A DNA stretch of 17,374 bases from contig PBTS01000039.1 of assembly GCA_002729175.1 (NCBI GenBank), positions 2,224 to 19,597 of the forward strand. Reading direction: 5' to 3'. The translations under genes were made by a program, and so were the position numbers. Source of the DNA: Fidelibacterota bacterium (GTDB lineage: Bacteria; Fidelibacterota; Marinisomatia; Marinisomatales; S15-B10). The first letter of the stretch is position 1. Each line of letters opens with the position of its first letter. A model generated the notes under the pieces. That model had not been told where the DNA came from, did not search any database, and saw nothing but the letters and a program-made list of their open reading frames with translations. This document shows, one piece after another, positions 877-15,550 of this stretch.

Positions 877-889
877 TATATTTTTTGTT

Positions 890-2197: not shown

Positions 2198-2200
2198 GAT

Positions 2201-2752: not shown

Positions 2753-2842
2753 AGAGAATCTTTCGCTGAAAATACTAAGATAATTTAATGCGACCCGCGA
2801 TACAATTTCTTTAAATTAAAGGGCATAATTTGAGGGGAAGCC

Positions 2843-5581
2843 ATGAATAACTTAACTATAAACAACCTTGTGTATTCATTTGGCAACGGGAAAGCCGATG
2901 GCCAAGCCGATATGGTGAATTTATTGGGTGGCAAAGGCGCCAATCTTGCGGAAATGACAAAATTGGGATTACCGGTTCCACCTGGGTTTACAATTACCAC
3001 AGAAGTTTGCACCCATTTTTATAACAACAACAAGTTTCCAAACCACCTTGAAGAAGAAGTGAAAAAGGCAATTTCGCGCATGGAATCCGATATGGGTATG
3101 CTATTTGGTGATGAGGAAAATCCTCTGCTCGTTTCAGTTCGGTCTGGTGCGCGAAAATCTATGCCCGGCATGATGGAAACGGTGTTGAATTTGGGGTTAA
3201 CAACAAAAACTATTCCCGGACTAATTCACAAAACAAAAAATGAACGCTTCGTTTACGATGCATACCGTCGGTTGATTATGATGTATTCGGATGTTGTAAT
3301 GGAAAAATCCGGTGGGATAGATCCAAAGGGAGAAAAAGGAATTAGACAACAACTTGAAGATATTTTAAGTATTTATAAAGCAAAAAAGAGATATCAATCA
3401 GACTTAGATATGAAAGGGAATGACTGGAAATATATTTCTACCGAATTCAAAAATTATATAGAAAAAAAGCTAAACAAACATTTCCCGGATGATCCATATG
3501 AACAACTGTGGGGAGGGATTCGGGCGGTTTTTCGAAGTTGGAGTGGCGCACGCGCGACACATTATCGTCGAATAGAAAACATACCCAACAATTGGGGAAC
3601 AGCGGTGAATGTTCAAGCGATGGTGTTTGGGAACACAGGAGATGCATCGGCCACAGGTGTTGCCTTCACAAGAAACCCAGCCACAGGCGAAAATAAATTT
3701 TATGGAGAATGGCTACAAAACGCCCAAGGAGAAGATGTTGTTGCCGGAGTTCGTACGCCACACCCTTTAAATGAAGCGACAAGAACAAAAGAATCCAAAC
3801 ACTTAAAGTCATTGGAATCCTTTATGCCCAAGGCTTATACCCAACTAAATGACATTAGAACAAGCCTAGAAACACATTATAGTGAGATGCAGGATATTGA
3901 ATTTACAATAGAAAACAATTTTCTATGGATGCTTCAAACGCGAACAGGAAAACGAACTGGGGTGGCTGCGATTCAAATGGCTGTAGATATGGTTACCGAT
4001 GGCATGATAACAAAAGAAGAGGCGATTTCCCGAATTAACCCAGAACAAATTGACGACCTGCTTCACCCAACATTAAATAAAGAAGAAGAAAAAAAAGCGG
4101 AGGTTATTGCCCGCGGGCTACCAGCCGGCCCAGGGGGAGGAATTGGCCAAATTGTTTTTACAGCAGACGAGGCAGAAAAACAAGCAATGGCAGGGAAGAA
4201 AGTGATTTTAGTTCGAGAAGAAACATCTCCAGAAGATGTTCATGGTATGCATGAATCAGAAGGAATTTTAACAGCCAAAGGTGGAATGACATCTCATGCA
4301 GCGCTTGTAGCTAGAGGTTGGGGGAAGTGTTGTATCGTTGGTTGTTCGGCCCTAAACATTGATTTATCTAAAAAAGAAATTACCATTGATGACAAAAAGC
4401 TATATGAGGGCGATTGGATTTCAATGAACGGCTCAAATGGAGCGGTATACAAAGGAAAGGTTGCTTTACAGACTGCAAATCCGGATTCTAATAAAACATA
4501 CCGTCAACTTATGATGTGGGCTGACAAGATTCGAACGCTAAAGATTCGAACAAACGCAGATAGCCCAGAGGACGCATTACAAGCAATTGCATTTGGAGCG
4601 GAGGGTATTGGATTGTGCCGCACGGAACATATGTTTTTTGATCCCCAAAGAGTGATGATAATGCGGAAAATGATTTTGGCGGAAAATGATTATAGTCGTC
4701 GAAAATTTGTTATGGAATTACTACCATATCAACGAAAGGACTTTATCGGTATCTTAAAAGCAATGGATGGAAAGCCGGCAACGATTCGTCTTCTTGACCC
4801 CCCACTCCACGAGTTTTTATCTTTAAACAGTTCGCAAATTAAAAAACTAGCTATAGAGTTAAATGTAATAACCCAAAAAATAAAAAACCGTATTTCTGAA
4901 CTTCATGAATTTAATCCCATGCTAGGGCATCGAGGATGTCGCTTAGGCATTGCTTACCCAGAAATCACCGAAATGCAAGCCCGCGCTATCTTTGAAGCAA
5001 CAGCAGAATTAACCGTAGCCGGCATAGAGGTATTTCCAGAAATAATGATTCCACTGGTTGGCACCCACACAGAGTTAAAAAACCAAGAGGCGCTGGTAAG
5101 AAACATTGCAGAAATAGTTAAAAAAGAACAGAAAACAGATTTTCATTATACGGTTGGAACAATGATTGAATTACCACGAGCTTGTTTAACCGCGAATGAA
5201 ATAGCAAAAAATGCAGAATTTTTTAGTTTTGGAACGAACGATTTAACACAAACAACCTATGGGTTTAGCCGAGATGATATCGGCGGGTTCTTGCCAAACT
5301 ATCTAAACGAAAACATTTTATCCCACGATCCATTTCAGAGTTTAGACCAAAATGGCGTGGGACAATTAATTACAATGGCCGTGGATAAGGGGAGAAGTGT
5401 TCGTAAAAATTTAAAAATAGGCATTTGTGGTGAACACGGCGGAGACCCAGCAAGTATTGATTTTTGTTATCGAAACGGCTTGGATTATGTTAGTTGTTCT
5501 CCATTTAGGGTTCCAATTGCTCGGCTAGCTGCCGCACAAGCAGTAATCAAAAAGAAAAGGTTTGACTCAAACCATAATTAA
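2843..5581 (+). CDS. ppdK: Pyruvate, phosphate dikinase
   Basis: LLGGKGANLAEM, PVPPGFTITT, LLVSVRSGA, phospho-His motif GGMTSHAALVARG, GIGLCRTEHMFF, FFSFGTNDLTQ and GICGEHGGDP. 912 aa; GAGGGG RBS at 2832-2837. Confidence 0.98.
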   Translation: MNNLTINNLVYSFGNGKADGQADMVNLLGGKGANLAEMTKLGLPVPPGFTITTEVCTHFYNNNKFPNHLEEEVKKAISRMESDMGMLFGDEENPLLVSVRSGARKSMPGMMETVLNLGLTTKTIPGLIHKTKNERFVYDAYRRLIMMYSDVVMEKSGGIDPKGEKGIRQQLEDILSIYKAKKRYQSDLDMKGNDWKYISTEFKNYIEKKLNKHFPDDPYEQLWGGIRAVFRSWSGARATHYRRIENIPNNWGTAVNVQAMVFGNTGDASATGVAFTRNPATGENKFYGEWLQNAQGEDVVAGVRTPHPLNEATRTKESKHLKSLESFMPKAYTQLNDIRTSLETHYSEMQDIEFTIENNFLWMLQTRTGKRTGVAAIQMAVDMVTDGMITKEEAISRINPEQIDDLLHPTLNKEEEKKAEVIARGLPAGPGGGIGQIVFTADEAEKQAMAGKKVILVREETSPEDVHGMHESEGILTAKGGMTSHAALVARGWGKCCIVGCSALNIDLSKKEITIDDKKLYEGDWISMNGSNGAVYKGKVALQTANPDSNKTYRQLMMWADKIRTLKIRTNADSPEDALQAIAFGAEGIGLCRTEHMFFDPQRVMIMRKMILAENDYSRRKFVMELLPYQRKDFIGILKAMDGKPATIRLLDPPLHEFLSLNSSQIKKLAIELNVITQKIKNRISELHEFNPMLGHRGCRLGIAYPEITEMQARAIFEATAELTVAGIEVFPEIMIPLVGTHTELKNQEALVRNIAEIVKKEQKTDFHYTVGTMIELPRACLTANEIAKNAEFFSFGTNDLTQTTYGFSRDDIGGFLPNYLNENILSHDPFQSLDQNGVGQLITMAVDKGRSVRKNLKIGICGEHGGDPASIDFCYRNGLDYVSCSPFRVPIARLAAAQAVIKKKRFDSNHN

Positions 5582-5591
5582 AACTTAGGTT
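5562..5591 (+). promoter_or_regulatory. Possible sigma70-type promoter for the asn leader/asnB transcript
   Basis: TTGACT (5562-5567), 18 nt spacer, TAGGTT (5586-5591). It would start transcription only a few nt before the leader ATG at 5602. Pattern match only. Confidence 0.3.
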
Positions 5592-5601
5592 TATTGACGG
5601 C

Positions 5602-5670
5602 ATGGGTTACACAATCAATAATAACAATAACAATAACGCCAATAACAATGGCGTAGGGGCTCTCGTGTAA
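5602..5670 (+). CDS. Putative asparagine-rich leader peptide MGYTINNNNNNNANNNGVGALV (22 aa, 10 Asn)
   Basis: ATG at 5602 and TAA at 5668-5670. Ten in-frame Asn codons use both AAT and AAC. Lies immediately upstream of a terminator and asnB. Confidence 0.85.
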   Translation: MGYTINNNNNNNANNNGVGALV

Positions 5671-5694
5671 CCTAACGAGTTAATTAAATATTTT

Positions 5695-5733
5695 AAAAGC
5701 CCCCAAAGTCGAAAGGTTTTGGGGGCTTTTTTT
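5695..5733 (+). terminator. Intrinsic terminator (candidate attenuator) upstream of asnB
   Basis: AAAAGCCCCCAAAGTC-GAAA-GGTTTTGGGGGC followed by T7: GC-rich stem with two G-U pairs, GNRA loop and U-tract, ending 24 nt before the asnB ATG. Confidence 0.9.
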
Positions 5734-5757
5734 ATTCATATAAATAAAGGAAAAACA

Positions 5758-7344
5758 ATGTGTGGAATTTTTGCCTATAAGGGCAACACATATAGGTGGA
5801 ATGATTTAAAACCCCACGTAGATAAAATACAATATAGGGGCCCAGATAATTCACACGAGAAACAGATCAATGCGAATACAATTTTTGCATTTCATCGGTT
5901 AGCAATAATAGGAACAAGTGAGGCTGGAGACCAACCCCTGTTTCACCCAGAAGATGGAGGCATTTCAATTGTCTGTAATGGAGAAATCTATAATTATGTA
6001 ATATTAGCGAAGAAATATGGAATTGATTTAAAAAGCGGATCTGACTGTGAAATAATTCTGCATTTATATAAACGGTTTGGTATTAAAAAAACGATAGAAT
6101 CCCTTGATGGCGTCTTTATGTTTGTGTTAAACGATCAAAACAAGCAGGAACTATTTGCTGGAAGAGATCCATTTGGTGTGAGGCCTGGGTTTGTAGGACG
6201 AAAGGGGCACGAGATTATGTTTGCATCAGAAGCAAAACCTCTCATTGGTTTGTGTGACAAAATCGATCAGTTTAGCCCGGGCCACTGGTGGCAGCTATCC
6301 ACAGATAAATTCTCCAAATATAATTTTAATAATGATATCGACTTAAACGAAACGAATGAATTAAGTATTCTTGAAGGAATCCGAGAAAAGTTGACCGATG
6401 CTGTTCAAAAAAGAATGATGGCCGAAAGAGAAATTGGATCACTGTTGTCTGGCGGGCTTGATTCAAGTTTAATTTCTGCGTTGGTGAACCAATTTCATAC
6501 TGGACCAACCTTAAAAACTTTTTCAATTGGTATGCCTGGAAGCATCGATTTAGATTATGCGCAAATTGTTGCAAACCACATAGGCACAGACCATCACCAG
6601 ATTCAAATATCAAAAGAAGCATTCTTAGATGCAATTGAAACGGTTATATATAATATAGAATCCTTTGATACCACGACAGTGCGAGCAAGCGTTGGTAACT
6701 ATCTTGTTTCAAAATATATTCGAGAAAACTCGGACTGTAAAGTTATTTTTAATGGTGATGGTAGCGATGAGGTCTGTGGTGGGTATGTATATATGAAAAA
6801 CGCACCGACGGAGAACGATTTTCAACTGGAATGCAATCGTCTCGTTGATGAAATTCATTGGTTTGATGTATTGAGATCCGATCGAAGCATAAGCTCAAAC
6901 GGACTAGAAGCGCGGACACCGTTTTTAGACAAAGCTTTTGTTCAATACTATTTATCCATCCCCGCTAAAATGAAAACATTTGATGGGAAGCTCCGATTGG
7001 AAAAATATTTATTACGAAAAGCATTCGACCAATCAGAATTGTTGCCGGAATCTGTATTATGGAGAAGAAAATGTGCATTCTCTGATGGTGTTAGTGCCAA
7101 AGACAATTCATGGCATCACGTAATCCAATCATTTGTAGATAGTAAAATTTCTGACGAGGAGTACAAAACAAAATCGAAAGCATATGTTCATTGTAAACCC
7201 ATTTTAAAAGAGAGCTATTATTACAGAAAAGTCTTCGAATCTATTTTTGGGAAGCAGGAAAAACTTATTCCGCATTTTTGGATGCCGAAATGGGTTGAAA
7301 CCAATGATCCATCTGCAAGAGAGATGACCGGTTACATAGAATAA
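5758..7344 (+). CDS. asnB: Asparagine synthase (glutamine-hydrolysing)
   Basis: True start is the ATG at 5758 (MCGIF, N-terminal nucleophile Cys), with AAAGGA RBS at 5746-5751. Motifs RGPD, FHRLAI, CNGEIYN, RDPFGVRP, LLSGGLDSS, GDGSDE and LEARTPFLD. Confidence 0.96.
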   Translation: MCGIFAYKGNTYRWNDLKPHVDKIQYRGPDNSHEKQINANTIFAFHRLAIIGTSEAGDQPLFHPEDGGISIVCNGEIYNYVILAKKYGIDLKSGSDCEIILHLYKRFGIKKTIESLDGVFMFVLNDQNKQELFAGRDPFGVRPGFVGRKGHEIMFASEAKPLIGLCDKIDQFSPGHWWQLSTDKFSKYNFNNDIDLNETNELSILEGIREKLTDAVQKRMMAEREIGSLLSGGLDSSLISALVNQFHTGPTLKTFSIGMPGSIDLDYAQIVANHIGTDHHQIQISKEAFLDAIETVIYNIESFDTTTVRASVGNYLVSKYIRENSDCKVIFNGDGSDEVCGGYVYMKNAPTENDFQLECNRLVDEIHWFDVLRSDRSISSNGLEARTPFLDKAFVQYYLSIPAKMKTFDGKLRLEKYLLRKAFDQSELLPESVLWRRKCAFSDGVSAKDNSWHHVIQSFVDSKISDEEYKTKSKAYVHCKPILKESYYYRKVFESIFGKQEKLIPHFWMPKWVETNDPSAREMTGYIE

Positions 7345-7383
7345 AAAACCCTGCTCATCCGTTTTGGGAAAGCAGGGTTTTTT
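7343..7383. terminator. Bidirectional intrinsic terminator between the convergent asnB and fliG-like genes
   Basis: Perfect 13-bp inverted repeat AAAAAACCCTGCT (7343-7355) / AGCAGGGTTTTTT (7371-7383), giving a U-tract on either strand. Confidence 0.9.
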
Positions 7384-7407
7384 CATTAGCGATAAATAAG
7401 AGTGAAT

Positions 7408-8340
7408 TTATTCGACGGTTTCTCCGCCAAGAAGATCTTCAAGTTTGAAGGCTCCATCACTCTCCATTTGTTTGGCAGACTGCACAATGGATTTTCTGGC
7501 ATTATCAACATCCCGCTTGGGGACCGCACCGGCAACAGGTTCGTACATTGCCTGTTTCTTTTTAGGCAACACACCAATTACTCTATCGGAAATTAATTGA
7601 TCCATTCCTTTTAGAGCCATAGCCACTGTATCCAAATCCACCGCATTCATGAGGTCTCGCAGTAGGTTGTCCGGAAAGATTTCAAAAATTGTTTCAAATG
7701 TTATGCGGTATTTTTTTACCTCTTCGGCGAGTTCCGGGTTTTCTTGTTCGAGATTAGTCATGAACATTTCTTCTTCTTCAGGATCCATCGAACCCAATAT
7801 ATCAGCTAAATCTTTACCGCCACCCCTAGAAAAAGCCACCGTTTTGGGAAGCTGTTTTGCTTTTTTCTGAAGTTTATTTGCAATTTGCACAACGGCTTCG
7901 AGAGGTACATCATTTAGGTTGCCAATACTTAAAAGAACCTGACCTTTTTCTTCTTCACCAATACGGCTTAATACTTTCATACGTTTTTCAGCAGAAAGCT
8001 GTGCGATTGAAATTGCGATTACTCGAGGTGATTCCGTAATTAACATTGCAATAATTTGTTCATCGGTTAAGTCATCTAAAAACGCGAAGGGTTTCTTGGG
8101 TTCATCAGACTCTTCATTTCCTTGAAATTTTTCACTGACAAAAGAAAAATAAAATTCTTCCATCACCTGTTTTTTTACAGAAAAAGCAACATTTTCTACA
8201 TCGCGCATGGCCGCTCGAATTTTTCGAACTTCTGTTTTGTCTAAACTCTTAACTAGGTTTAATGCGAGGCTTTCTCCAAGTACGGAAAACAGGATGGCCA
8301 CTTTTTGAAGGCCCGAAAGTTTGTTATAATCTGAAATCAT
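7408..8340 (-). CDS. fliG: FliG-like rotor protein (divergent; N, M and C domains)
   Basis: LSGLQKVAILFSVLG (FliG-N), PFAFL...ESPRVIA (EHPQ position), GG linker RGGGKDLADIL, ITFETI (MFxF position), VAMALKG and the C-terminal VPKRDVDNARKSIV. Confidence 0.85.
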   Translation of the reverse strand: MISDYNKLSGLQKVAILFSVLGESLALNLVKSLDKTEVRKIRAAMRDVENVAFSVKKQVMEEFYFSFVSEKFQGNEESDEPKKPFAFLDDLTDEQIIAMLITESPRVIAISIAQLSAEKRMKVLSRIGEEEKGQVLLSIGNLNDVPLEAVVQIANKLQKKAKQLPKTVAFSRGGGKDLADILGSMDPEEEEMFMTNLEQENPELAEEVKKYRITFETIFEIFPDNLLRDLMNAVDLDTVAMALKGMDQLISDRVIGVLPKKKQAMYEPVAGAVPKRDVDNARKSIVQSAKQMESDGAFKLEDLLGGETVE

Positions 8341-8349
8341 AATTGCCTC

Positions 8350-9855
8350 TTACTTTTTCTTTTTTTTCTTCTTCTTTTTGCCGCCACCATCATCTTCTGG
8401 CGTTTCCTGCGCTGTTGGCTCTGGTTCTGGCGGCGCTTCTTCCAAAATCCAATCCTTTACTATTTTTGAAGCTGCTTGTGGTTGACCAACGCTCATGGAC
8501 ACAACAGCTTGTTTCATATCGTTAACCTCACTTTGAAGTACGCCAATGTCTTCAATTGTTGTTGGTTTTGGTGTGGCGCGGGTTTGTTGTTCCTCAGAAA
8601 CGCTTACTGTTTCATCTTTTTTTTTAGGTTTTGGAGGATAGACCATCCAGGGTGGTGGCGGTGGCATTTGTTGCTTTGGTTTGTTCATTAAAACAAAAAC
8701 AAGAACAACCACGAGAACAATAACAAGCGCGCCAAGAATTGAAACAAAAACAATCATTCCAGTGTTGCTACCGCCAGAACGAGCTTGATTATCTAAATCG
8801 CTTTGCACCTGATCTAACATGGATAGTTTTTCAGCAATTTGGGAATCAAGGTTGGCTTTTTCTTGTAGTTTTTGTTGAACAGATGATTTGGCCTCAATGG
8901 ATGCAGAATCTGTTAATCCTGCGGTTCCAAGGAAAGCTTTTAAGTTTTGAATCTCTTCGTTGATAGATTGGAGACGTATAGAATCCTGTTTGAGTATAGA
9001 TTGTTTTTCCTGATCATAAGATCGATCTCTGGCGACCGATTCAAATTCAGCAAGCTTTGACTGAAAATAAAGACGATCTTCCTGACGTCGACCCTCTTCT
9101 GTTTCTTTATAGTTTTCAAGCTCCTGTTTCCAATCAACTTCTCCCAAACGCTCTCTTTGACTTTCAAGAGATTCAAGCTTTTCAGCAATCGTTTTTAGCA
9201 GAACCTGTTCAGCGGATTTTTCATCCCGCCGTTCTTTAAAACTGGCCGTCATAATGCTGAGCACATCTCCCCTTGGTCTATTAAAACGGGAAGCAACCAT
9301 AACAACCTGGCGGATATTTTCAATTAGTTCTGGCGCGGCCCCCTCTTGAAGAATAATACTGATTTCCATATTTCTAACACTGGCCATTGCCGATCTTTTT
9401 TCAATTTGTGTACGAGATACGACATTATTCTCTGGGGGAGAACCATCCATAGTGCTTATGTTTTCTTCGTTGTCGTTCGCCGACGTAGTTGGGGGAGTTT
9501 CTGCGGTAAAATCAAAACCTGGGATTGGTAGTCCGACACTACCGCGACTGGGCACTTCTCCATCATTTAAAAATCCTTCAGCCGCTTTTAGCGATTCAAG
9601 ATTAGATTCGCCCCCACGTGGCGAAAAAGTGGTTTGACTTTCAAACGCACTGCTGATTTCTAAATCAACACTCACATCAACAACGTACTTACGGTTGTCG
9701 ATTACTTTTTCAAGCGCACCGGCAATTCTCTTTCTCAAATCATTCTCAATCATGAGTTTTTGCGCCAAATACCCACTCGATTGGGCAAAGCCTATGTTTA
9801 AAATAAATCCGACTATGAGGGCAAAAAACAATGCCCCATTTCTCCGCTTAATCAT
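8350..9855 (-). CDS. FliF-like ring protein: signal/TM, RBM3 (YscJ/FliF C-terminal) domain, long coiled coil, TM helix, FliG-binding tail
   Basis: IENDLRKRIAGALEKVI...VVDVSVDL and VRNMEISIIL...IENIRQVVMVASRFNRPRGDVLSIMTASF match the two halves of FliF RBM3. QPQAASKIVKDWI matches the FliF C-terminal P..A..I..W motif. The ATG at 9855 is preferred over 9873 because AAGGGAG precedes it. Confidence 0.7.
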   Translation of the reverse strand: MIKRRNGALFFALIVGFILNIGFAQSSGYLAQKLMIENDLRKRIAGALEKVIDNRKYVVDVSVDLEISSAFESQTTFSPRGGESNLESLKAAEGFLNDGEVPSRGSVGLPIPGFDFTAETPPTTSANDNEENISTMDGSPPENNVVSRTQIEKRSAMASVRNMEISIILQEGAAPELIENIRQVVMVASRFNRPRGDVLSIMTASFKERRDEKSAEQVLLKTIAEKLESLESQRERLGEVDWKQELENYKETEEGRRQEDRLYFQSKLAEFESVARDRSYDQEKQSILKQDSIRLQSINEEIQNLKAFLGTAGLTDSASIEAKSSVQQKLQEKANLDSQIAEKLSMLDQVQSDLDNQARSGGSNTGMIVFVSILGALVIVLVVVLVFVLMNKPKQQMPPPPPWMVYPPKPKKKDETVSVSEEQQTRATPKPTTIEDIGVLQSEVNDMKQAVVSMSVGQPQAASKIVKDWILEEAPPEPEPTAQETPEDDGGGKKKKKKKKK

Positions 9856-9881
9856 ATTGACTCCCTTATTCATATGAATTT

Positions 9882-10676
9882 TTAATTATCCCCGGTATTT
9901 TTTGTACTAGATTCAGATCTTCCAACCGGCCCACCGCGCGGTGCCAAAAACGTGATTTCAACACGCCGGTTTCGAGATTTTTGCTGAGGGTTTGAATTGT
10001 ATTTTTGAACCAAATCCGAAGAAAGCAACTCTGTGTTTTTCCTGTCTCTTGGTACAAACTCTCCATACCCAACGGCTTCCAACCGGGTCGGGTCTACACC
10101 TAACGTGATCATTTGTCTAACGACCGCCGCTGCTCGCGCACCGGACAACTCCCAATTGCTTGGGTATTTTACTTGAAGCGCCTTTGGCAATTGGTCGCTA
10201 TCTGTGTGACCTTCAACAGCAATTTGAAAATAAGATTTCTCAACAGTTGGGATTATTTTTTTTAAAATATCAAGGAACTCCGGTTTTGTTTCTGCCGATC
10301 CAGAGCGAAAACTGATATCAGATGAAATTCCAATGGTAACACCCTTTGGACTGGTTGTAACCTCAACGGGCTTTTCTCCAGTTTTAGGATCAACTGCCAT
10401 TTCTTCAACCATTTTTTGAGCTTCTTTCTGAATGTCTCCGAGTGACATTGCTTGATTTTCAATCTCTTTTTTCTTCCCAACCGATTTACCCATTCCATCG
10501 GCCATATTTTGTAGTTTTACTGGATCGATGGTTGAGATAGCAGCCAATAATACGAAAAAAGCAAAAAGAAGGGTCATCATGTCAGCAAAAGTACCAAACC
10601 ATCCAGGCAGGCCCTCTTCAACCATCCCCATTCCTTTTCGAATGAACTGTTTTTTTTCTTGAGCTGTGGCAGCCAT
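9882..10676 (-). CDS. motB: Stator B subunit, MotB/PomB-like, with OmpA-like peptidoglycan-binding domain
   Basis: PGWFGTFADMMTLLFAFFVLL with the essential Asp; VEGHTD, YPSNWELSGARAAAV, AVGYGE and RNRRVEI. Confidence 0.93.
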   Translation of the reverse strand: MAATAQEKKQFIRKGMGMVEEGLPGWFGTFADMMTLLFAFFVLLAAISTIDPVKLQNMADGMGKSVGKKKEIENQAMSLGDIQKEAQKMVEEMAVDPKTGEKPVEVTTSPKGVTIGISSDISFRSGSAETKPEFLDILKKIIPTVEKSYFQIAVEGHTDSDQLPKALQVKYPSNWELSGARAAAVVRQMITLGVDPTRLEAVGYGEFVPRDRKNTELLSSDLVQKYNSNPQQKSRNRRVEITFLAPRGGPVGRSESSTKNTGDN

Positions 10677-10681
10677 TTAAT

Positions 10682-11452
10682 TTACTCTGCGTCTTTTTTC
10701 CACTCTTTTGGTGGGATGAATGAATTGAGTTTTTCACGAACAATAATGGGATGTTTTTTCTGATGAATTAACCGGGCAGCTTCAACTTGCAAGCTTTGTA
10801 TTGTACTGGAAAAAGATATTCGTGTTTTAATCTTATCCGCCATAGGGAGAAAAAATAAATTGGCGAGAACAGCACCATAAAAAGTTGTAATAAGTGCAGC
10901 AGACATACCCGCACCAAGAGTATCCGTTCCCCCCTCACCAAAGCCGGACAACATAACCACAAGCCCTATTAATGTTCCAACCATACCCCACGCCGGCGCC
11001 ATCGTGCCCATAGATTTGAACAATCCAGCTTGTGTGCTTTCTCTTAACTCTCGGTATTCAATTCGAGTGTTTAAAATTTCAGTAACTTCATCTAATGAAT
11101 ATCCGTCAATCACCATTTGGGCACCATCTCGAAAGAAAAAACTTTTAATGTTTCCAATGTGGTTTTCTAAATCAGCAGTACCTTTACGCGCCACCTCGGA
11201 TGCCTCAACCGCCTCATCGACAATACTACCGAGAGTATCTTTATCACCTTTAAAAACTGCACCCATAGCCGCACCAAGCTGAAGCACATCTTTTAACGGG
11301 AAGGCAACAGAAACAGACGCAATCATTCCACCCATTACAATACCAAGACTCGAAGCCGATCCAAACATCCCTAAATTTGGTGTCATTAAAAAAATACTGC
11401 CAACAATGGCTCCCATTCCTAATATGATTCCTACAAGAGTTGCAATATCCAT
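10682..11452 (-). CDS. motA: Stator A subunit, MotA/PomA-like
   Basis: MDIATLVG start, GIVMGG, ARKG...LE, APAWGMVGTLIGLVVML, GMSAALITTFYGAVLANLFFLPMADK and HPIIVREKL; 256 aa. Confidence 0.93.
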   Translation of the reverse strand: MDIATLVGIILGMGAIVGSIFLMTPNLGMFGSASSLGIVMGGMIASVSVAFPLKDVLQLGAAMGAVFKGDKDTLGSIVDEAVEASEVARKGTADLENHIGNIKSFFFRDGAQMVIDGYSLDEVTEILNTRIEYRELRESTQAGLFKSMGTMAPAWGMVGTLIGLVVMLSGFGEGGTDTLGAGMSAALITTFYGAVLANLFFLPMADKIKTRISFSSTIQSLQVEAARLIHQKKHPIIVREKLNSFIPPKEWKKDAE

Positions 11453-11454
11453 AC

Positions 11455-12807
11455 TTATTCCTTAATCATGCTGGTTGATTTCAATCGTTTTTCATGCAAT
11501 GCTTTCAGCACATTTCTCACATCATCATACTCTGGATCCATACGTAATGCAAGATTCCAATTGATGGTTGCGCGCTGAATATCCCCCAACTTAAAGTAAA
11601 TAGAACCTCGACGCGCATAGGCTAACGCTATATTTGGATTTGCGTCTAATGCTGATTCCACCTCTTGTAGTGATGTTCGATAATCTCCCGCATGGAAATA
11701 TCGCAATGAACGAGATAAATGACGCATTGCTTCATTCATTTTCTGTTCGTTTACATTATTATTTAGTCGAACCGCTTTTAAGGAGTCCTCCAAAAATTTT
11801 GAGTGGTGTTCCATAGCCGAAAGTCGAGTGATTAAATTCCGCATCTCGTTGTTCATCATTCCCATAGAATCCCGAAGAGTGGTGACCATATAATCAGCCA
11901 ACATTAGCGTTGTGTCCATTTCAGCCATATGGATGGGACCCGGTTCATAAATAGGTGGGGCCGGCCCACTCCCTGGTGTTTTGATTGCACTCCCCCTTGG
12001 AGCTGTTATTTCAAAACCAACAGTTAGGCCCGCATGACCTTCCCAATATCGTTCTTTCCATTTAGGTAATTTTTCTATGTGGGTGAACCCTAGGTTAAGG
12101 CGATAATCCGAGGTAAGGGGGATGCGGAGTCCCACATTGATGCCATTCCCGTCAAATTCACCCACAATATCTACACCGCCCCATTTTTCTAGATAGGGCG
12201 TATTAAAAACTGCACCAGCAAAAACGCCGGCATTTGTTCCCGTTATTTCTTCAGTTAGCGTATCCGTATTTACCGTATCGATTGCACCAAAACCACCCGT
12301 TCCAAAACCGATAAATGTGTTCATATTGTATTGCCCGATTTGTTTCTGGCTACTCACAATACCAAAAAAGGATAACTCTTTTGGATCTAGATTAAGACCC
12401 TTAGTTTTATTTTCGAATACAATATCTTGAAGGCCAACGGTAAACGCGATATTTTCTCTTACGTATACCCGCCGCTGGATATGAAATCCAAACTCAACAG
12501 GCGCTTTATAAGTAGAGACCTCCAAGTTGGCGAGGCGAGTGGTATCGGCGCTCTGTGCGGTAGAAAACCCAAGCGTCCACCCAGAGTTGATATCCATACT
12601 GAAATAAGCACCCCCAGCTGTATTAAATGGAGATAAATTGTGAAGCTCAGATCCAAACCCAGCTGTAAACAAATAAGGAGACGGGCCAATTGACGTATAG
12701 GGGATTTTCATCATGGGGCCCGGCCTAAGATATGCAACACGGGTTGCACCAAAAATTGTAGAAAATAATATGAGCGATAATAATAGGGTGCGGTTTATCT
12801 GTTTCAT
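11455..12807 (-). CDS. Exported protein: predicted beta-rich/outer-membrane barrel N-domain, coiled coil and C-terminal TPR
   Basis: Signal peptide; Gly/aromatic alternating strands (FTVGLQDI, NTFIGFGTG, VGEFDGNGINVGLRIP, YRLNLGF, GLTVGFEI); Pro linker; heptad segment; TPR (ALAYARRGSIYFKLGDIQRATINWNLALRMDP). ATGA overlap with the upstream gene. Confidence 0.7.
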   Translation of the reverse strand: MKQINRTLLLSLILFSTIFGATRVAYLRPGPMMKIPYTSIGPSPYLFTAGFGSELHNLSPFNTAGGAYFSMDINSGWTLGFSTAQSADTTRLANLEVSTYKAPVEFGFHIQRRVYVRENIAFTVGLQDIVFENKTKGLNLDPKELSFFGIVSSQKQIGQYNMNTFIGFGTGGFGAIDTVNTDTLTEEITGTNAGVFAGAVFNTPYLEKWGGVDIVGEFDGNGINVGLRIPLTSDYRLNLGFTHIEKLPKWKERYWEGHAGLTVGFEITAPRGSAIKTPGSGPAPPIYEPGPIHMAEMDTTLMLADYMVTTLRDSMGMMNNEMRNLITRLSAMEHHSKFLEDSLKAVRLNNNVNEQKMNEAMRHLSRSLRYFHAGDYRTSLQEVESALDANPNIALAYARRGSIYFKLGDIQRATINWNLALRMDPEYDDVRNVLKALHEKRLKSTSMIKE

Positions 12808-13652
12808 TGGTGTCCGTCAGTGGTTTTTAATTCCATTTTTGCCAATCGAAAATATTCACTATCTGGATGCTGAGAGACAACATTACTAAAAGCAATAATG
12901 GCTAACGATTCATTCCCCATTTTTCGATGCAACAACCCCTTTTGGACCAATGCATCATCAATTCTGAGTGTGCCAGTGATAGAAATTTTATTTAAAAGCT
13001 GTAACGCGTTTTCATATTGCCCCGTTTGTTGGTAAGCATCAGCAGTCCAGTATAATATGTTTTCAACAGTTTTTTTAGGCGCCTCCTGTAAATTGAGGGA
13101 TAGAAATTTACTTAATGCAGTTTGGTAATCTTCTCGTTGGTAGGCAAACACACCAGCCATATATGTTGACTGGTTAAATTCCTGTATAGGTTTAGTTTTT
13201 GTTTTTTTAACCAATTCAGTTTTAGGTGATAAGATTGGTGTGTGCTCACGTCGGTTGGAGAGGTTGTTTCTATTTTGCATTTCTGCTAAACTTTGTTTGA
13301 GTTGCCCGTTCTCCTGGCGAAGGATATTCACTTCCGTGTGAAAGGAGTTTTCTAATCGTTCGATACGGTTATTAATCCGCCCCAAAGTGGATAGTAACTC
13401 CTTGCTGGAGGCCATATACACAGAGCCGCTCTCAACTTTTTTTATTTTAAAGGAAACTTCATCAGAGGGCTTTTCAACAAAATGGGATGAAACCTCAGAC
13501 CCTTTATTGGGTTCAATTACAATACCAAGATCTAAAAAAAATATTTCTGAGAGGGGTATTTCTTGTGCGCCCAAAGATCCGATAATTAATATGAGGGGCG
13601 ACAGGTGTTTTATCAGCGGCTTTCTATGGTTTAACGGGAATTTCAAACCCAT
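12804..13652 (-). CDS. Exported coiled-coil + TPR protein (CpoB/YbgF-like architecture)
   Basis: Hydrophobic N-terminal segment ending SLGA-QE, coiled coil (LGRINNRIERLEN...LKQSLAEMQ) and three TPR-like repeats ending VVSQHPDSEY...A. The likely start is the ATG at 13652 in a TAATG overlap, not the TTG at 13670. Confidence 0.7.
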   Translation of the reverse strand: MGLKFPLNHRKPLIKHLSPLILIIGSLGAQEIPLSEIFFLDLGIVIEPNKGSEVSSHFVEKPSDEVSFKIKKVESGSVYMASSKELLSTLGRINNRIERLENSFHTEVNILRQENGQLKQSLAEMQNRNNLSNRREHTPILSPKTELVKKTKTKPIQEFNQSTYMAGVFAYQREDYQTALSKFLSLNLQEAPKKTVENILYWTADAYQQTGQYENALQLLNKISITGTLRIDDALVQKGLLHRKMGNESLAIIAFSNVVSQHPDSEYFRLAKMELKTTDGHQ

Positions 13653-14800
13653 TATTCGTACTCTTCCCAATCAATGACATAAGAGTATCCAATAAAAGAA
13701 CCAAAATCATGGGGGACATAAAGTTCGAAAGCTCCAGTGGCTCCAGGCAGGAGTGTGGCATCTGTTGTTATACCAGAATCAAAGGTGTGATATCCACCCC
13801 TTACAAAAGTTGTTAGAGTCTTTGTTTCACCGCTCCAATTTTTACGGAAGACAAAATCAACCTTAACAAAATCTGCTCTTCGACCGCCAATATTTTTTAA
13901 TTCCCCATTAAAAACATAATTACCTTGTACGTCTTTCTTTTCAGTAATATTCCCAACCAACACACAGTTTGCAGAGTATTTTTTTGATCCACCCCTTTCA
14001 GCGGATGTATACTGGGGCTCTGCCAGTTTTGGCATAGGTGGCGGTGTGTAGCTGTCACGCACTTGTTCGGGAACATATTCTGCCTGTTCTTCGGTAACAA
14101 CGTTATCAACCATCCGCACCACATCTTGTCGATTGATAATTAAGTAGCCAACAAGGGTTTCAACCTTCAAAGATTCTTCATCTTGATAAATGACTTTTCC
14201 AAAAACGGTAGAACCATTTTTCATGATAATCTCTTTGGAATAAATAGCAAGGGGGTTAACCCACATTTTACTGAGAGCTTTTAAATTTTCTAATTCTTCA
14301 TTGAGATATTTAAGCTCAGCGGTCATTTTTTTAATTTCAAAGCTAAGCTCATTAAGAATATAATCTTTTCCTGGGTCAGGTGTGAATTCTACTGCATCGA
14401 GAGCGGGGCTCTTTACCGTATCTGCTTGTGTGCCAGTTGGTGGTGAATCAGACGACAACTCAAGGTCACCTAGCTTAACATTTTTATCAGCCACCTCAAC
14501 GGGGGAGCTTAGCTTTCCGGTATCACCCCCATCGGCTTCTAATGTATAGTTACCTGGAAGCACTTTCGAAAATTCAAACTTTCCACCACCGCGCCCTAGC
14601 CGTTTTTTAGACGTTTCTGTGCGCTGGACCTCTGTTCCATCTTCTCCCAAAAGCAGGACAGTTGTTTTTACAACACCGTTTCCTTCTGGGTCAACCAGCG
14701 TTCCGGAAATGTTTTGCGGCTTCTGAGCGAACAATGTGGTTACAAGAAGGGTGAACATCACCCCAATTAGTAATTGTTTTAAAAATAATTTATTTGCCAT
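13652..14800 (-). CDS. Exported multidomain protein: carboxypeptidase-regulatory-like beta-sandwich, coiled coil, small beta domain, Pro linker, C-terminal Ig-like (FxLYD-like) domain
   Basis: Signal peptide (LFA-Q); ISGTLVD...G.FEFSKVLPGNYTLEA; heptads ELSFEIKKMTAELKYLNEELENLK; IIMKNGSTVFGKVI; GELKNIGGRRADFVKV...LLPGATGAF. GAGGT RBS upstream. Confidence 0.7.
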   Translation of the reverse strand: MANKLFLKQLLIGVMFTLLVTTLFAQKPQNISGTLVDPEGNGVVKTTVLLLGEDGTEVQRTETSKKRLGRGGGKFEFSKVLPGNYTLEADGGDTGKLSSPVEVADKNVKLGDLELSSDSPPTGTQADTVKSPALDAVEFTPDPGKDYILNELSFEIKKMTAELKYLNEELENLKALSKMWVNPLAIYSKEIIMKNGSTVFGKVIYQDEESLKVETLVGYLIINRQDVVRMVDNVVTEEQAEYVPEQVRDSYTPPPMPKLAEPQYTSAERGGSKKYSANCVLVGNITEKKDVQGNYVFNGELKNIGGRRADFVKVDFVFRKNWSGETKTLTTFVRGGYHTFDSGITTDATLLPGATGAFELYVPHDFGSFIGYSYVIDWEEYE

Positions 14801-14854
14801 TTATCTTTACCTCGGATTGTGTGGCACCTAAAGATTTAAGTCTATAGGTACGAA

Positions 14855-14883
14855 AGTTTAGCTACGTTCTGTTCTTGAATCAA
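14855..14883 (-). promoter_or_regulatory. Putative sigma70-type promoter of the seven-gene motor-like operon
   Basis: On the minus strand: TTGATT (14883-14878), 17 nt spacer, TAAACT (14860-14855), about 55 nt upstream of the ATG at 14800. Confidence 0.5.
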
Positions 14884-14932
14884 GTCAAAAATATCAGAAT
14901 AATATTTGAGGAGGAAGCATAAACTTAAAACG

Positions 14933-15484: not shown

Positions 15485-15550
15485 AGAGAGTCTTCCTATT
15501 TAATATTAAAATTAATATACAATTTACTAGAAACGAACATTCAGGTCAAT

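What the first reader, a model, noticed from the sequence alone, without database searches (positions are those of the whole stretch)
8350..9873. FliF-like protein lacks RBM1/RBM2 and has gained a long periplasmic coiled coil
Seen: the RBM3-like motif begins within about 10 residues of the N-terminal hydrophobic segment, which ends IGFA-QS like a cleavable signal peptide. That leaves no room for RBM1 and RBM2. After RBM3 come about 150 residues of charged heptad-like sequence, one TM helix (about 8763-8686), a Pro-rich stretch and the P..A..I..W tail. Known: canonical FliF is TM1-RBM1-RBM2-RBM3-TM2-tail, where RBM1/2 surround the export gate and the tail co-folds with FliG-N. Inference: the ring keeps rotor coupling but has lost the export-gate housing, and is held away from the membrane on a coiled-coil stalk. 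This is the strongest internal evidence that the machine is not a flagellum.
Basis: partly seen in the sequence, partly recalled or inferred. Interest (0 to 1): 0.8.

Follow-up and report, generated by a model that had tools for sequence, protein, structure and literature searches.

The report
FliF-like ring protein without export housing
This gene encodes a cut-down relative of the flagellar MS-ring protein that sits in a conserved operon with its own FliG, MotA and MotB in ocean bacteria lacking flagella, so it is probably the rotor ring of an undescribed ion-driven envelope machine.

Summary
Window 8350-9873 (-) encodes a 507-aa protein with these parts:
- a signal-peptide-like N-terminus;
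- one FliF RBM3/S-ring domain (Pfam PF08345 E 4.7e-12; fold Z 13.9-15.8 to solved FliF rings);
- about 150 residues of confidently predicted helix;
- one TM helix (residues 371-396);
- a Pro/Lys-rich linker;
- a tail that matches the C-terminal tail of canonical FliF at profile level.

No RBM1/RBM2 (PF01514) was found in the protein, in 36 family members or in the MAG.

The gene lies in a conserved operon: three secreted envelope proteins, MotA, MotB, the FliF-like gene, then a FliG-like gene. All 80 related Marinimicrobia loci keep this order as far as their contigs reach. Relatives occur in 95 of 151 phylum genomes, most without FlhA. Four of 5 flagellated relatives examined carry it beside a complete canonical FliF. 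It is therefore a separate system, not a decayed flagellum.

RNA-library contigs from three studies cover the operon.

The ring's assembly, rotation, height above the membrane and output are inferred, not shown. Whether domains were lost or gained was not tested.

Eight literature searches found no description. This scan has noted the same operon on other DNA at least eight times.

The window's contig is probably mis-binned into its MAG.

The parts
8350..9873 (-). FliF-like gene (507 aa; likely true start M7 at 9855)
   Evidence: ORF. PF08345 E 4.7e-12. 1914 relatives at E<=0.001 among 8000 scored candidates.
9784..9873 (-). Residues 1-30: signal-peptide-like presequence ending IGFA|Q
   Evidence: Rule-based only. 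Position -1 is A/G/S in 35 of 36 and +1 is Q in 35 of 36 family members. [AGS]Q is enriched after hydrophobic cores of signal-like ORFs in the MAG: 85 of 282 against 159 of 1387.
9625..9774 (-). Residues 34-83: RBM3 first half (helix, strands 63-73 and 77-83)
   Evidence: AF2 model. Alignment to Salmonella FliF from residue 241.
9415..9624 (-). Residues 84-153: low-complexity insertion at the place of the FliF beta-collar loop. It holds the LPIPGF motif (residues 115-120, nt 9514-9531; P118 invariant; G119 and, in the 13-row alignment, F120 at 90% or more).
   Evidence: pLDDT below 50 over 87-114 and 125-151. P118 invariant, G119 nearly so. P116, P118 and G119 invariant in the 13-row alignment. 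The insertion between strands at 73 and 163 is 58-173 residues across 36 members.
9238..9414 (-). Residues 154-212: RBM3 second half (strands 154-160 and 164-176, helix 181-194, strand 204-210; R201-G202-D203 nearly invariant)
8779..9222 (-). Residues 218-365: three long helices, presumed periplasmic stalk
   Evidence: Helices 218-242, 248-316, 322-365. Weak heptad signal. The segment from residue 212 to 371 is 119-207 residues (median 160.5) in 36 members. It is about 30 residues in canonical FliF of relatives, read from the sequences.
8686..8763 (-). Residues 371-396: single transmembrane helix
   Evidence: Helix 371-396 in the model; hydrophobic run seen in the sequence.
8548..8685 (-). Residues 397-442: Pro- and Lys-rich cytoplasmic linker (NKPKQQMPPPPPWMVYPPKPKKK...)
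   Evidence: Sequence. pLDDT below 50 over 416-441.
8443..8547 (-). Residues 443-477: two tail helices with the FliF-type motif (SMSVGQPxxASxIVKDW)
   Evidence: hhalign to tails of 5 canonical FliFs: prob 84, E 7.7e-6, 29 columns. 21 permuted controls score at most 18.0 against 29.2.
8353..8442 (-). Residues 478-507: acidic/Pro stretch ending in nine lysines
   Evidence: Sequence. K-runs also end many close relatives.
7408..8340 (-). FliG-like gene (310 aa) with N, M and C domains
   Evidence: PF14842 8.1e-17, PF14841 2.3e-10, PF01706 4.1e-19. Its profile hits T. maritima FliG-MC at 2.5e-40 and the FliG-N chains of 5tdy (1e-8) and 5wuj (4.4e-4).
9882..10676 (-). MotB-like stator subunit (plug, TM with D32, OmpA-like domain)
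   Evidence: PF13677 5.7e-15, PF00691 1.5e-12. NCBIfam MotB/MotD/MotS models hit below their cut-offs.
10682..11452 (-). MotA-like stator subunit (256 aa)
   Evidence: PF01618 1.2e-24. MotP 7.3e-49, PomA 4.1e-47, MotA 6.7e-44, all below equivalog cut-offs.
11455..12807 (-). 450-aa secreted protein: unassigned N-terminal part plus C-terminal TPR
   Evidence: TPR hits only. Found in 70 of 80 related loci, always directly upstream of motA.
12804..13670 (-). 288-aa secreted coiled-coil + TPR protein (YbgF/BamD-like repeats)
   Evidence: TPR_6 1.4e-9. TIGR02795 5.1e-8, below cut-off. Found in 58 of 80 loci.
13652..14800 (-). 382-aa secreted protein, first gene of the operon
   Evidence: CarboxypepD_reg 3e-6, below cut-off. 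Found in 61 of 80 loci. RNA-library contigs of 4 runs end at 14796-14840.

Best explanation
The gene encodes the membrane ring protein of a non-flagellar rotor-stator machine. It is a paralogue of the flagellar MS-ring protein FliF reduced to one ring-building domain (RBM3, the S-ring domain).

Most likely course of events:
1. The protein is exported by Sec and its N-terminal signal peptide is cut before Q31 (inferred).
2. It stays anchored only by the C-terminal TM helix 371-396.
3. It assembles through RBM3 into a many-membered periplasmic ring (inferred by analogy with FliF).
4. About 140 helical residues per subunit join ring and membrane. If they run end to end they would reach about 20 nm (inferred from 1.5 A per residue).
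5. In the cytoplasm the conserved tail binds the N-domain of the adjacent FliG-like protein, as in FliF-FliG. Homology is shown; binding is only weakly supported.
6. MotA/MotB units, fixed to the cell wall by MotB's OmpA-like domain, use ion flow (D32 is present) to push on FliG-C and turn the ring (inferred).
7. The ring passes this motion to the three secreted TPR/coiled-coil proteins of the operon.

The output is unknown. Because RBM1/2, the housing of the export gate, is missing and no export-gate genes were found, the machine does not build or spin a flagellum.
For: Domain identity:
- PF08345 over the whole profile, E 4.7e-12.
- The family profile hits Salmonella FliF over its RBM3, E 2e-7.
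- The 18 Foldseek hits at E<=0.001 are all FliF S-ring/RBM3 chains, apart from one integrative FliF-YlxF model (E 4e-8 to 1.5e-6); SpoIIIAG follows at E 0.07.
- VIA-align Z 15.8, 14.9 and 13.9 to FliF; the next fold scores 8.8.

No RBM1/2: 0 of 36; 0 of 5.

Tail: hhalign to canonical FliF tails, prob 84, score 29.2, against at most 18.0 in 21 permuted controls.

Tail with FliG-N, complex prediction: verdict 'weak support'. Score 0.46, best of 3 controls 0.00. That mark was reached by 116 of 157 solved complexes and 2 of 215 mismatched pairs. At 0.60 or under it was reached by only 18 of the 157 and by both mismatches that passed. The runs agree in at least 92% of contacts and the partner's pLDDT is at least 63. 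Like complexes are solved (5tdy, 5wuj), so the pass may come from memory.

Partners: FliG-like protein with all three domains, MotB with plug and OmpA domain, and MotA.

A separate system:
- 5 of 5 flagellated relatives have a canonical FliF with both Pfam domains.
- 4 of those 5 also have a PF08345-only protein elsewhere, in the same operon.
- G134 has three MotA-family genes: one 10 kb from its canonical fliF, one ExbB-sized, and one in this operon.

Distribution:
- Relatives in 95 of 151 phylum genomes and 50 of 60 genera.
- FliG_C in 111 of 151 against FlhA in 39 of 151, so at least 72 genomes have FliG without FlhA.
- FlhA in 0 of 10 genomes of the window's nearest family, f5.

Synteny in 80 loci: FliG-like 78, MotB 77, MotA 73, always in the same order.

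The long helical segment is family-wide: 119-207 residues in 36 members.

RNA-library contigs of 3 studies cover 7200-14840. Summed depth falls from 19-34 (4-12 in X19) over 13944-14786 to 0-8 beyond 14787.
Against: - No ring, rotation or partner contact was observed or modelled; only monomers were folded.
- Signal-peptide cleavage rests on a hand rule. AF2 draws one continuous helix 6-57 and cannot tell.
- The heptad signal is modest: 5 of 300 shuffles reach it.
- The complex prediction is only weak and may reflect memory of solved FliF-FliG complexes.
- FliG-like, MotA and MotB all score below NCBIfam equivalog cut-offs, so they have diverged from working flagellar proteins.
- The one cultured member of the phylum is reported non-motile (passages of PMC11652737). 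No phenotype points to any output, and whether that strain carries the operon was not checked.
- RNA libraries can contain DNA, and no DNA run was laid for comparison.
- The 'own genome' absences are weakened because the window's contig is probably mis-binned. For FlhA and PF01514, the genomes of the nearest family give the same answer.
Confidence: 0.6

Rival explanations
1. The same proteins form an envelope-spanning energiser that does not turn a full ring. As in Tol-Pal or TonB, the stator would use ion flow to pull or twist the long helical protein, tensioning or remodelling outer-membrane and cell-wall partners. The RBM3 ring would be a static scaffold.
For: - The operon has a Tol-Pal-like cast: a MotA/ExbB-family channel, an OmpA-like wall binder, a membrane protein with a long periplasmic helix, and a coiled-coil + TPR protein that hits tol-pal YbgF (TIGR02795, 5.1e-8, below cut-off).
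- TolB_N was not found in 4 of 5 genomes searched, including the nearest relatives.
Against: - Coupling here would go through a complete FliG-like protein whose C-domain matches the FliG_C model (PF01706 4.1e-19) and through a FliF-type tail. That is the rotary arrangement. TolA/TonB instead couple inside the membrane.
- The TolB_N control rang in only 2 of 14 named genomes, so its absence says little.
Confidence: 0.2
2. The machine is the missing motor of the type 9 secretion or gliding apparatus of Marinimicrobia. Torque from the FliG/FliF-like rotor would be carried across the periplasm to the SprA translocon or to surface adhesins, in place of GldL/GldM.
For: - T9SS C-terminal sorting domains occur in 26 of 26 genomes of the order, with 6-97 matches each.
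- SprA_N occurs in 59 of 61 phylum genomes.
- GldM (TIGR03517, 0 of 26; PF12081, 0 of 61 over cut-off) and GldL (TIGR03513, 0 of 61 over cut-off) were not found.
- Passages of PMC5596340 also report many Por-sorting-domain genes in SAR406.
Against: - Genera g5 and g30 have SprA (3 of 3 and 6 of 6). Neither the FliF-like gene (0 of 7 and 0 of 22) nor FliG_C (0 of 7 and 0 of 22) was found in them.
- The GldL/GldM searches had no positive control; nothing rang over the cut-off in the named control genomes.
- Earlier unchecked scan notes point to another conserved inner-membrane pair plus barrel cassette in this phylum (e1-1236867).
Confidence: 0.1
3. Anatomical rival. The N-terminal hydrophobic segment is not cleaved but serves as TM1, as in canonical FliF. 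The RBM3 ring would then sit on the membrane, and the long helices would fold back as a hairpin or lie along the membrane instead of forming a stalk.
For: - Canonical FliF has two TM helices.
- AF2 predicts a continuous helix 6-57.
- The uncharged stretch before Q31 is 19 residues in this protein and has a median of 17 in the family, not far from a short TM helix.
Against: - The whole presequence is only 20-31 aa in 35 of 36 members. Residue -1 is small in 35 of 36 and +1 is Q in 35 of 36.
- Canonical FliFs of the phylum have a 22-residue TM1, which begins about 20-25 residues from the N-terminus in the sequences.
- The predicted helices are unequal (69 and 44 residues). This fits a hairpin returning to the membrane poorly (inference).
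Confidence: 0.2
4. The operon is a decaying remnant of a lost flagellum with no present function.
For: - Some lineages of the phylum are flagellated (FlhA in 39 of 151), so flagellar ancestry is plausible.
- The proteins score below flagellar equivalog cut-offs.
Against: - All seven reading frames are intact in the window.
- Gene order is kept in 80 loci down to 34-40% identity.
- Relatives are present in 50 of 60 genera.
- The operon co-exists with a full flagellar set in relatives.
- The family has conserved features of its own, such as the LPIPGF motif and the long helices.
- Contigs from RNA libraries cover it.
Confidence: 0.03

Closest known systems
FliF, the flagellar MS-ring protein (Salmonella and Vibrio structures 6scn, 6sd1, 8z5v, 8z4d)
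   Same: - RBM3/S-ring fold, including the strands that lead into the beta-collar (Z 13.9-15.8; E 4e-8).
- Conserved RGD-type motif at the last strand.
- A C-terminal TM helix followed by a cytoplasmic tail with the P..A..I..W motif, homologous to canonical tails.
- A FliG gene directly downstream.
   Different: - No RBM1/RBM2.
- A signal-peptide-like N-terminus instead of a cytoplasmic N-terminus plus TM1.
- 119-207 helical-segment residues between RBM3 and the TM helix instead of about 30.
- The collar loop is replaced by low-complexity sequence carrying an LPIPGF motif.
- No export-gate, rod or C-ring genes were found in the genomes searched.
- No NCBIfam FliF model is hit at E<=0.1.
Torque-generating core of the bacterial flagellar motor (MotA5B2 stator, FliG ring, FliF ring)
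   Same: All four protein families are present, adjacent and co-oriented. MotB keeps the plug, D32 and the OmpA-like domain; that D32 is the ion-carrying residue is recalled. FliG keeps its N, M and C domains.
   Different: - No FliM/FliN was found (FliMN_C).
- The first half of the FliG EHPQR motif reads E-S-P-R here, read from the alignment. The motif and its role in FliM binding are recalled.
- The operon adds three secreted TPR/coiled-coil proteins.
- It works beside, not within, the flagellum of flagellated relatives.
SctJ/PrgK/EscJ, the inner-membrane ring lipoprotein of injectisomes
   Same: Overall topology: N-terminal signal peptide, periplasmic ring-building domains, one C-terminal TM helix. 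The ring-building-motif fold is shared (PrgK Z 7.8-8.2).
   Different: - SctJ uses RBM1/RBM2 (PF01514), which is not hit here.
- There is no lipobox cysteine.
- SctJ has no FliG-binding tail and no stator (recalled).
SpoIIIAG of the sporulation channel
   Same: A ring-building domain of RBM3 type with an inserted beta region, used in a non-flagellar envelope machine (5wc3: Z 7.6; E 0.07).
   Different: The similarity is far weaker than to FliF. SpoIIIAG has no FliG, no stator and no tail motif, and it works in a different biological setting.
GldL/GldM (T9SS and gliding motor) and TolQRA
   Same: The idea only: an inner-membrane ion-driven motor whose energy is carried across the periplasm by a long helical or extended protein to outer-membrane partners (recalled knowledge, not tested by homology).
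   Different: No sequence relation was found. The GldL and GldM models do not hit over their cut-offs. Coupling here would be cytoplasmic, through FliG.

Membership tests
FliF (flagellar M-ring protein) | RBM3/beta-collar domain (Pfam PF08345) | tested here: met
   E 4.7e-12, 47 bits against a cut-off of 23.8, whole profile. 30 of 36 family members hit it. Fold Z 13.9-15.8.
FliF (flagellar M-ring protein) | RBM1 and RBM2 (Pfam PF01514 YscJ_FliF) | tested here: not met
   No hit at E<=0.1 in the protein. 0 of 36 members at E<=0.01. None in the MAG at E<=1. The control genomes rang. Only 4 residues separate the presumed cleavage site (A30|Q31) from the start of the conserved RBM3 helix at residue 35.
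FliF (flagellar M-ring protein) | Two TM helices flanking the periplasmic region | tested here: inconclusive
   The C-terminal TM helix is clear (371-396). The N-terminal segment looks like a cleavable signal peptide by a hand rule. No SignalP or DeepTMHMM was available.
FliF (flagellar M-ring protein) | C-terminal cytoplasmic tail that binds FliG-N | tested here: inconclusive
   Homology of the tail is met (hhalign prob 84; controls lower). Binding has only 'weak support': 0.46 against 0.00 in controls, and it may be from memory of 5tdy/5wuj.
FliF (flagellar M-ring protein) | Curated whole-protein model (NCBIfam FliF equivalog) | tested here: not met
   No FliF model among the NCBIfam hits at E<=0.1.
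FliF (flagellar M-ring protein) | Works with flagellar export gate and rod (FlhA, FliP, rod proteins in the genome) | tested here: not met
   FHIPEP, FliP, Flg_bb_rod and FliMN_C were not found in the MAG, which is 93% complete. FlhA in 0 of 10 genomes of the nearest family.
SctJ/YscJ injectisome ring lipoprotein | PF01514 domain and lipoprotein signal with lipobox Cys | tested here: not met
   No PF01514 hit. The presequences end in A/G/S then Q, with no Cys at +1 in 36 of 36 members.
SpoIIIAG | RBM3-like ring domain with beta-triangle insertion; sporulation operon context | tested here: inconclusive
   Fold match Z 7.6 and E 0.07, far below FliF. No spoIIIA-type genes among the operon's Pfam hits.
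FliG (neighbouring gene 7408-8340) | FliG_N, FliG_M and FliG_C domains | tested here: met
   All three are over their Pfam cut-offs. The profile hits solved FliG at 2.5e-40.
FliG (neighbouring gene 7408-8340) | Equivalog-level score (TIGR00207) | tested here: not met
   116.2 bits against a cut-off of 226.7.
MotA/MotB flagellar stator (10682-11452, 9882-10676) | MotA_ExbB channel domain; MotB plug, TM Asp and OmpA-like domain | tested here: met
   PF01618 1.2e-24, PF13677 5.7e-15, PF00691 1.5e-12. D32 is read in the sequence. All NCBIfam equivalog scores are below their cut-offs.

The most novel reading that the evidence does not exclude
A phylum-wide, flagellum-independent rotary engine. A FliG ring is driven by MotAB. 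Its torque is carried by a palisade of about 20-nm helices to an S-ring-like RBM3 ring placed near the wall or outer membrane. There the ring turns or loads TPR and outer-membrane partners. The boldest version: it powers the otherwise motor-less type 9 secretion or surface-adhesin system of Marinimicrobia. This would be the first known case of the flagellar rotor-stator core used as a stand-alone motor without any type III export apparatus.
Probability: 0.12. Interest if true: 0.95.

Novelty: new variant of a known kind. Interest (0 to 1): 0.72.

Why it matters
If the reading holds, the torque-making core of the flagellar motor (stator, FliG, S-ring) can exist and be kept by selection without an export gate, rod, hook or filament.

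This bears on two questions:
- How modular the flagellar motor is. That feeds the long debate on whether motor and export apparatus had separate origins.
- What abundant, almost uncultured ocean bacteria (SAR406/Marinimicrobia) do with an ion-driven machine in their envelope.

The protein is also a natural experiment on FliF. It keeps RBM3 and the FliG-binding tail, drops the housing of the export gate, and adds a long spacer. That makes it a simple target for testing what sets ring size and how torque passes through an MS-ring.

Tried and rejected
- The search for related loci with the 36-row alignment failed for lack of a conserved stretch. A 13-row alignment worked.
- Full-length hhalign against canonical FliF returned only the RBM3 match. 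The tail had to be compared on its own.
- A search for longer, fused forms of the protein found none. The tool calls this weak evidence, so fused FliF-FliG forms reported in earlier scan notes were not confirmed here.
- The 450-aa partner: the PDB sequence search gave only TPR hits. The Atlas gave its own family, and 'YaiO outer-membrane barrel' clusters only at 0.87, which is a lead and not evidence.
- TolB_N search: found in 1 of 5 genomes. Controls rang in only 2 of 14, so it says little.
- GldM and GldL searches: nothing over the cut-offs, but no control genome rang either, so absence is not shown.
- Two copies of the operon in the MAG first looked like paralogues. This was rejected. The window's copy is 38% identical to the C64 copy. 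The C64 copy is 83% identical to the same-genus genome. The window's copy is 78% identical to a genome of another family. Contig C60 has 40.8% GC against 46.1% for the bin.
- Literature: searches and passages read in PMC13277936 and PMC12505986 gave no description of this protein or operon. Subscription journals are not covered.
- In the laid RNA contigs, all four runs have a contig break between about 8490 and 8617, and the tool skipped a repeat at 8343-8394. I read these as assembly breaks at low-complexity sequence, not as RNA ends.
Full report
**What is in the sequence**

The window carries seven co-oriented, tightly packed genes on the minus strand between 14800 and 7408. The finding is the sixth of them, 8350-9873, 507 aa.

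Pfam finds one domain: YscJ_FliF_C (PF08345), residues 54-212, over the whole profile, E 4.7e-12. It finds no YscJ_FliF (PF01514) hit. NCBIfam has no FliF model among its hits at E<=0.1.

The neighbours are as follows:
- MotA: PF01618 1.2e-24. The best NCBIfam models are MotP, PomA and MotA, all below their cut-offs.
- MotB: plug 5.7e-15, OmpA 1.5e-12; D32 is present in the TM segment.
- Downstream, a 310-aa protein with FliG_N, FliG_M and FliG_C.
- Upstream, three proteins with signal-like N-termini: 382 aa; 288 aa with coiled coil and TPR; 450 aa with C-terminal TPR.

**Anatomy of the protein**

I aligned 36 relatives taken from a search of 1.84 billion representative proteins. That search gave 226 hits at E<=1e-3 and 41 at E<=1e-30. 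The conserved features are these:

- *Presequence.* It is 20-31 residues in 35 of 36 members. Residue -1 is A/G/S in 35 of 36, and Q follows in 35 of 36.
- *RBM3 first half.* Conserved YLxQKLMLEN...VVDV.
- *Variable insertion.* It is low-complexity, 58-173 residues between the strands at 73 and 163. It contains an LPIPGF motif with P118 invariant and G119 nearly so.
- *RBM3 second half.* PxxIENVRQV...RGDxLSIMTASF.
- *Long helical segment.* 119-207 residues, median 160.5.
- *One TM helix.*
- *Pro/Lys-rich linker.*
- *Tail.* RQSVVSMSVGQPxxASxIxKxW, with W475 nearly invariant.

AlphaFold2 with this alignment gave mean pLDDT 74.9. Its elements are:
- strands 63-73 and 77-83;
- a disordered stretch (pLDDT below 50 over 87-114 and 125-151);
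- strands 154-160 and 164-176, helix 181-194, strand 204-210;
- helices 218-242, 248-316 and 322-365, with block-mean pLDDT 94-97 over residues 251-360;
- helix 371-396;
- helices 443-461 and 465-477.

The region 215-368 is 36% charged and Pro-free. It has a modest heptad signal: 0.413 against 0.33 +/- 0.038, reached by 5 of 300 shuffles. Relatives start at the position of M7, so the true start is probably nt 9855.

**Is the domain RBM3?**

Four independent lines say yes.
1. The family profile hits Salmonella FliF from residue 241, over RBM3, at E 2e-7. It also hits other FliF chains.
2. Foldseek with the full model returns FliF S-ring/RBM3 chains for 17 of its 18 hits at E<=0.001, plus one integrative FliF-YlxF model (E 4e-8 to 1.5e-6). 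SpoIIIAG comes next at E 0.07.
3. A separate model of residues 28-215 (pLDDT 78.7) was aligned to 48,161 representative chains. It gives Z 15.8, 14.9 and 13.9 for FliF of Vibrio and Salmonella. For the best hit, 131 of the 148 modelled residues are aligned. The next fold is OsmC-like at 8.8. PrgK scores 7.8-8.2 and SpoIIIAG 7.6.
4. hhalign against the canonical FliFs of five flagellated relatives aligns the family only to their residues 224-398, which is RBM3 (prob 90.5).

The strands 77-83 and 154-160 flank the insertion. They lie where FliF's beta-collar leaves the domain, so at least the base of a collar is kept. The loop itself is unstructured in the model.

**No RBM1/RBM2**

- PF01514 is not hit in the protein.
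- It is hit in 0 of 36 family members at E<=0.01, while 30 of 36 hit PF08345.
- It is found nowhere in the MAG at E<=1.
- It is found in 0 of 5 genomes of the nearest family at E<=0.1. The named control genomes rang each time.
- There is also no room: only 4 residues separate the presumed cleavage site (A30|Q31) from the start of the conserved RBM3 helix at residue 35.

**The N-terminus**

No signal-peptide predictor was available, so this rests on rules.

- The presequence has a basic start, a median uncharged stretch of 17 residues and a small residue at -1.
- The five canonical FliFs of the phylum have a 22-residue TM1. It begins about 20-25 residues from the N-terminus (sequences).
- The conserved Q at +1 recalls the 'Q-rule' of Bacteroidetes signal peptidase I substrates. 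I saw only the abstract of PMC5837995 in the listing. It says the rule does not hold for the whole FCB group.
- In this MAG, a crude scan finds [AGS]Q just after the hydrophobic core in 85 of 282 signal-like ORFs. It finds it at like positions in 159 of 1387 other ORFs. That is weak support that A|Q is a common cleavage context here.

I rate cleavage likely, not shown.

**The tail and FliG**

A profile of the tail (residues 436-490, 35 rows) was aligned to the last 71 residues of the five canonical FliFs. The result was prob 84, E 7.7e-6, score 29.2 over 29 columns, with QPxxASxIVKDW matching NPExAAxLIRSW. Twenty-one controls with permuted or reversed columns scored at most 18.0.

The FliG-like profile hits the FliG-N chains of the solved FliF-FliG complexes 5tdy (1e-8) and 5wuj (4.4e-4), and FliG-MC at 2.5e-40.

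A complex prediction of FliG-N (1-100) with the tail gave 'weak support':
- score 0.46, best of 3 controls 0.00;
- the mark was reached by 116 of 157 solved complexes and 2 of 215 mismatched pairs;
- at 0.60 or under it was reached by only 18 of the 157 and by both mismatches that passed;
- the runs agree in at least 92% of contacts, and the partner's pLDDT is at least 63.

Because like complexes are solved, this shows likeness more than binding.

**A separate system, not a broken flagellum**

Relatives named by their sources are Candidatus Marinimicrobia, Neomarinimicrobiota or Fidelibacterota.

Counts in 151 genomes of the phylum:

| Query | Genomes with a match |
|---|---|
| The FliF-like protein | 95 of 151 (50 of 60 genera) |
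| FliG_C | 111 of 151 |
| FlhA | 39 of 151 |

At least 72 genomes therefore have FliG without FlhA. In the window's order the only FlhA match is a 20.6-bit hit below the cut-off. The nearest family, f5, has 0 of 10.

Five flagellated relatives all have a canonical FliF of 518-536 aa with both Pfam domains. Four of them also have a PF08345-only protein at another locus. That locus is the same operon: unknown protein, TPR, 445-aa TPR protein, MotA, MotB, FliF-like, FliG-like. The fifth, G004, has the operon too, but its FliF-like member no longer hits PF08345. The complete genome G134 has three MotA-family genes: one 10 kb from its canonical fliF, one of ExbB size, and one in this operon.

In 80 related loci the order is constant. 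Counts of loci with each gene detected:

| Gene | Loci of 80 |
|---|---|
| FliG-like | 78 |
| MotB | 77 |
| MotA | 73 |
| 450-aa protein | 70 |
| 382-aa protein | 61 |
| 288-aa TPR protein | 58 |

Almost all misses are at contig ends. The exception is four full-flank loci without a detectable 288-aa TPR gene.

In the MAG itself, FHIPEP, FliP, Flg_bb_rod and FliMN_C were not found. The MAG is 93% complete with 7.1% contamination.

**Whose contig is it?**

The MAG holds two copies of the motA-motB-fliF-like-fliG-like string.

- The window's contig C60 has 40.8% GC against 46.1% for the bin, and the third most deviant tetranucleotide profile.
- Its protein is 78% identical to a genome of family f5 and only 38% identical to the C64 copy.
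- The C64 copy is 83% identical to the same-genus genome.

So C60 is probably a mis-binned contig of another Marinimicrobia family, and each organism has one copy.

**Expression**

Six runs on record as RNA, from three studies, hold 79-97% of the sampled words of 7408-11452.

Contigs of four of these runs, at 95% likeness or more, cover 7200-14840. In all four, the contig over the first gene ends between 14796 and 14840; the start codon is at 14800. Summed depth over 13944-14786 is 19-34, or 4-12 in X19. It falls to 0-8 beyond 14787.

This fits one transcription unit. However, contigs cannot prove a single transcript, RNA libraries can hold DNA, and no DNA run was laid.

**How it most likely works**

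*Shown:* the domain identities, the missing domains, the conserved operon, and its independence from flagellar genes.

*Inferred:*
- ring assembly through RBM3;
- anchoring by the single TM helix;
- about 138 helical residues which, end to end at 1.5 A per residue, would span roughly 20 nm and put the ring near the wall or outer membrane;
- FliG bound to the tail;
- MotAB turning the FliG ring;
- hand-over of motion to the secreted TPR/coiled-coil partners.

The unequal helices (69 and 44 residues) argue against a simple hairpin. The geometry remains open.

The invariant LPIPGF motif inside a disordered loop suggests a partner-binding or assembly-dependent element. It is unexplained.

**Rivals**

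- *A non-rotating, Tol-Pal-like energiser.* It fits the cast of proteins, but not the FliG-based coupling.
- *A link to type 9 secretion.* This is tempting. Sorting-domain cargo is found in 26 of 26 genomes of the order and SprA in 59 of 61 of the phylum, while GldL and GldM are not detected. But two genera with SprA lack the operon, and the GldL/GldM searches had no positive control.
- *A relic.* Conservation speaks against it.

**Known or new**

Eight full-text searches and passages of two papers on flagellar and stator evolution gave no description of this protein or operon. The one cultured member of the phylum is described as non-motile (passages of PMC11652737); I did not check whether it has the operon.

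Earlier notes of this scan describe the same operon on other DNA at least eight times. They are unchecked AI notes and are not counted as support.

I file the protein as a new variant of a known kind. It is a FliF-family ring protein that fails the membership tests for FliF proper: no RBM1/2, no equivalog hit, no flagellar partners.

Noticed in passing
window 1-17374 (contig C60 of the MAG); second copy at L002 (G000:C64): The window's contig is probably mis-binned. It has 40.8% GC against 46.1% for the bin. Its FliF-like protein is 78% identical to a genome of another family but 38% identical to the bin's other copy. That other copy is 83% identical to the same-genus genome.
   Followed up: yes
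window 9514-9531 (-), residues 115-120: An LPIPGF motif (P118 invariant across 36 relatives, G119 nearly so) lies inside the otherwise variable, low-confidence insertion at the place of the FliF collar loop. Its role is unexplained.
   Followed up: partly
window 8353-8379 (-), residues 499-507: The protein ends in nine lysines after an acidic/Pro stretch. Many close relatives also end in K-runs. The read-laying tool skipped a repeat at 8343-8394.
   Followed up: no
window 11977-12257: In all four RNA-library runs the summed contig depth in this bin, inside the 450-aa gene, is 91-696 against about 5-30 around it. There are loose ends at 12070 and 12144. Some abundant unrelated or conserved sequence seems to share this stretch.
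   Followed up: no
window 8616: Contigs in three of four RNA-library runs carry one extra T after 8616, in the Lys/Pro-rich linker region. In X19 it is the only contig there. It may be a strain variant or an assembly slip at a homopolymer.
   Followed up: no
genomes of the order and phylum: T9SS sorting-domain proteins occur in 26 of 26 genomes of the order (6-97 matches each) and SprA_N in 59 of 61 phylum genomes. GldM and GldL models found nothing over their cut-offs, and no positive control rang.
   Followed up: partly
G010:C14:27121-27561 and 30596-31036 (inside L023): Two weak, sub-cut-off matches to the C-terminal part of the GldL model (22-24 bits) lie 3-7 kb downstream of the FliG-like gene of a flagellated relative. 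They may be only coiled-coil likeness.
   Followed up: no
whole MAG: [AGS]Q right after N-terminal hydrophobic cores is about 2.5-fold enriched in signal-like ORFs (8.1% of [AGS]X dipeptides against 3.2-3.7% elsewhere). This hints at a Q-rule-like habit outside Bacteroidetes.
   Followed up: partly
window 14933-15484 (-), 15551-15991 (-): Upstream of the operon lie a 183-aa protein with one sub-cut-off TPR hit and an N-terminus ending in Cys, detected in 28 of 80 related loci, and an Smr-domain protein. RNA-contig depth drops sharply here.
   Followed up: no
window 890-7344: The flanking genes on the other side (a 435-aa, a 183-aa, a 912-aa and a 541-aa ORF) were not examined with any family search.
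   Followed up: no
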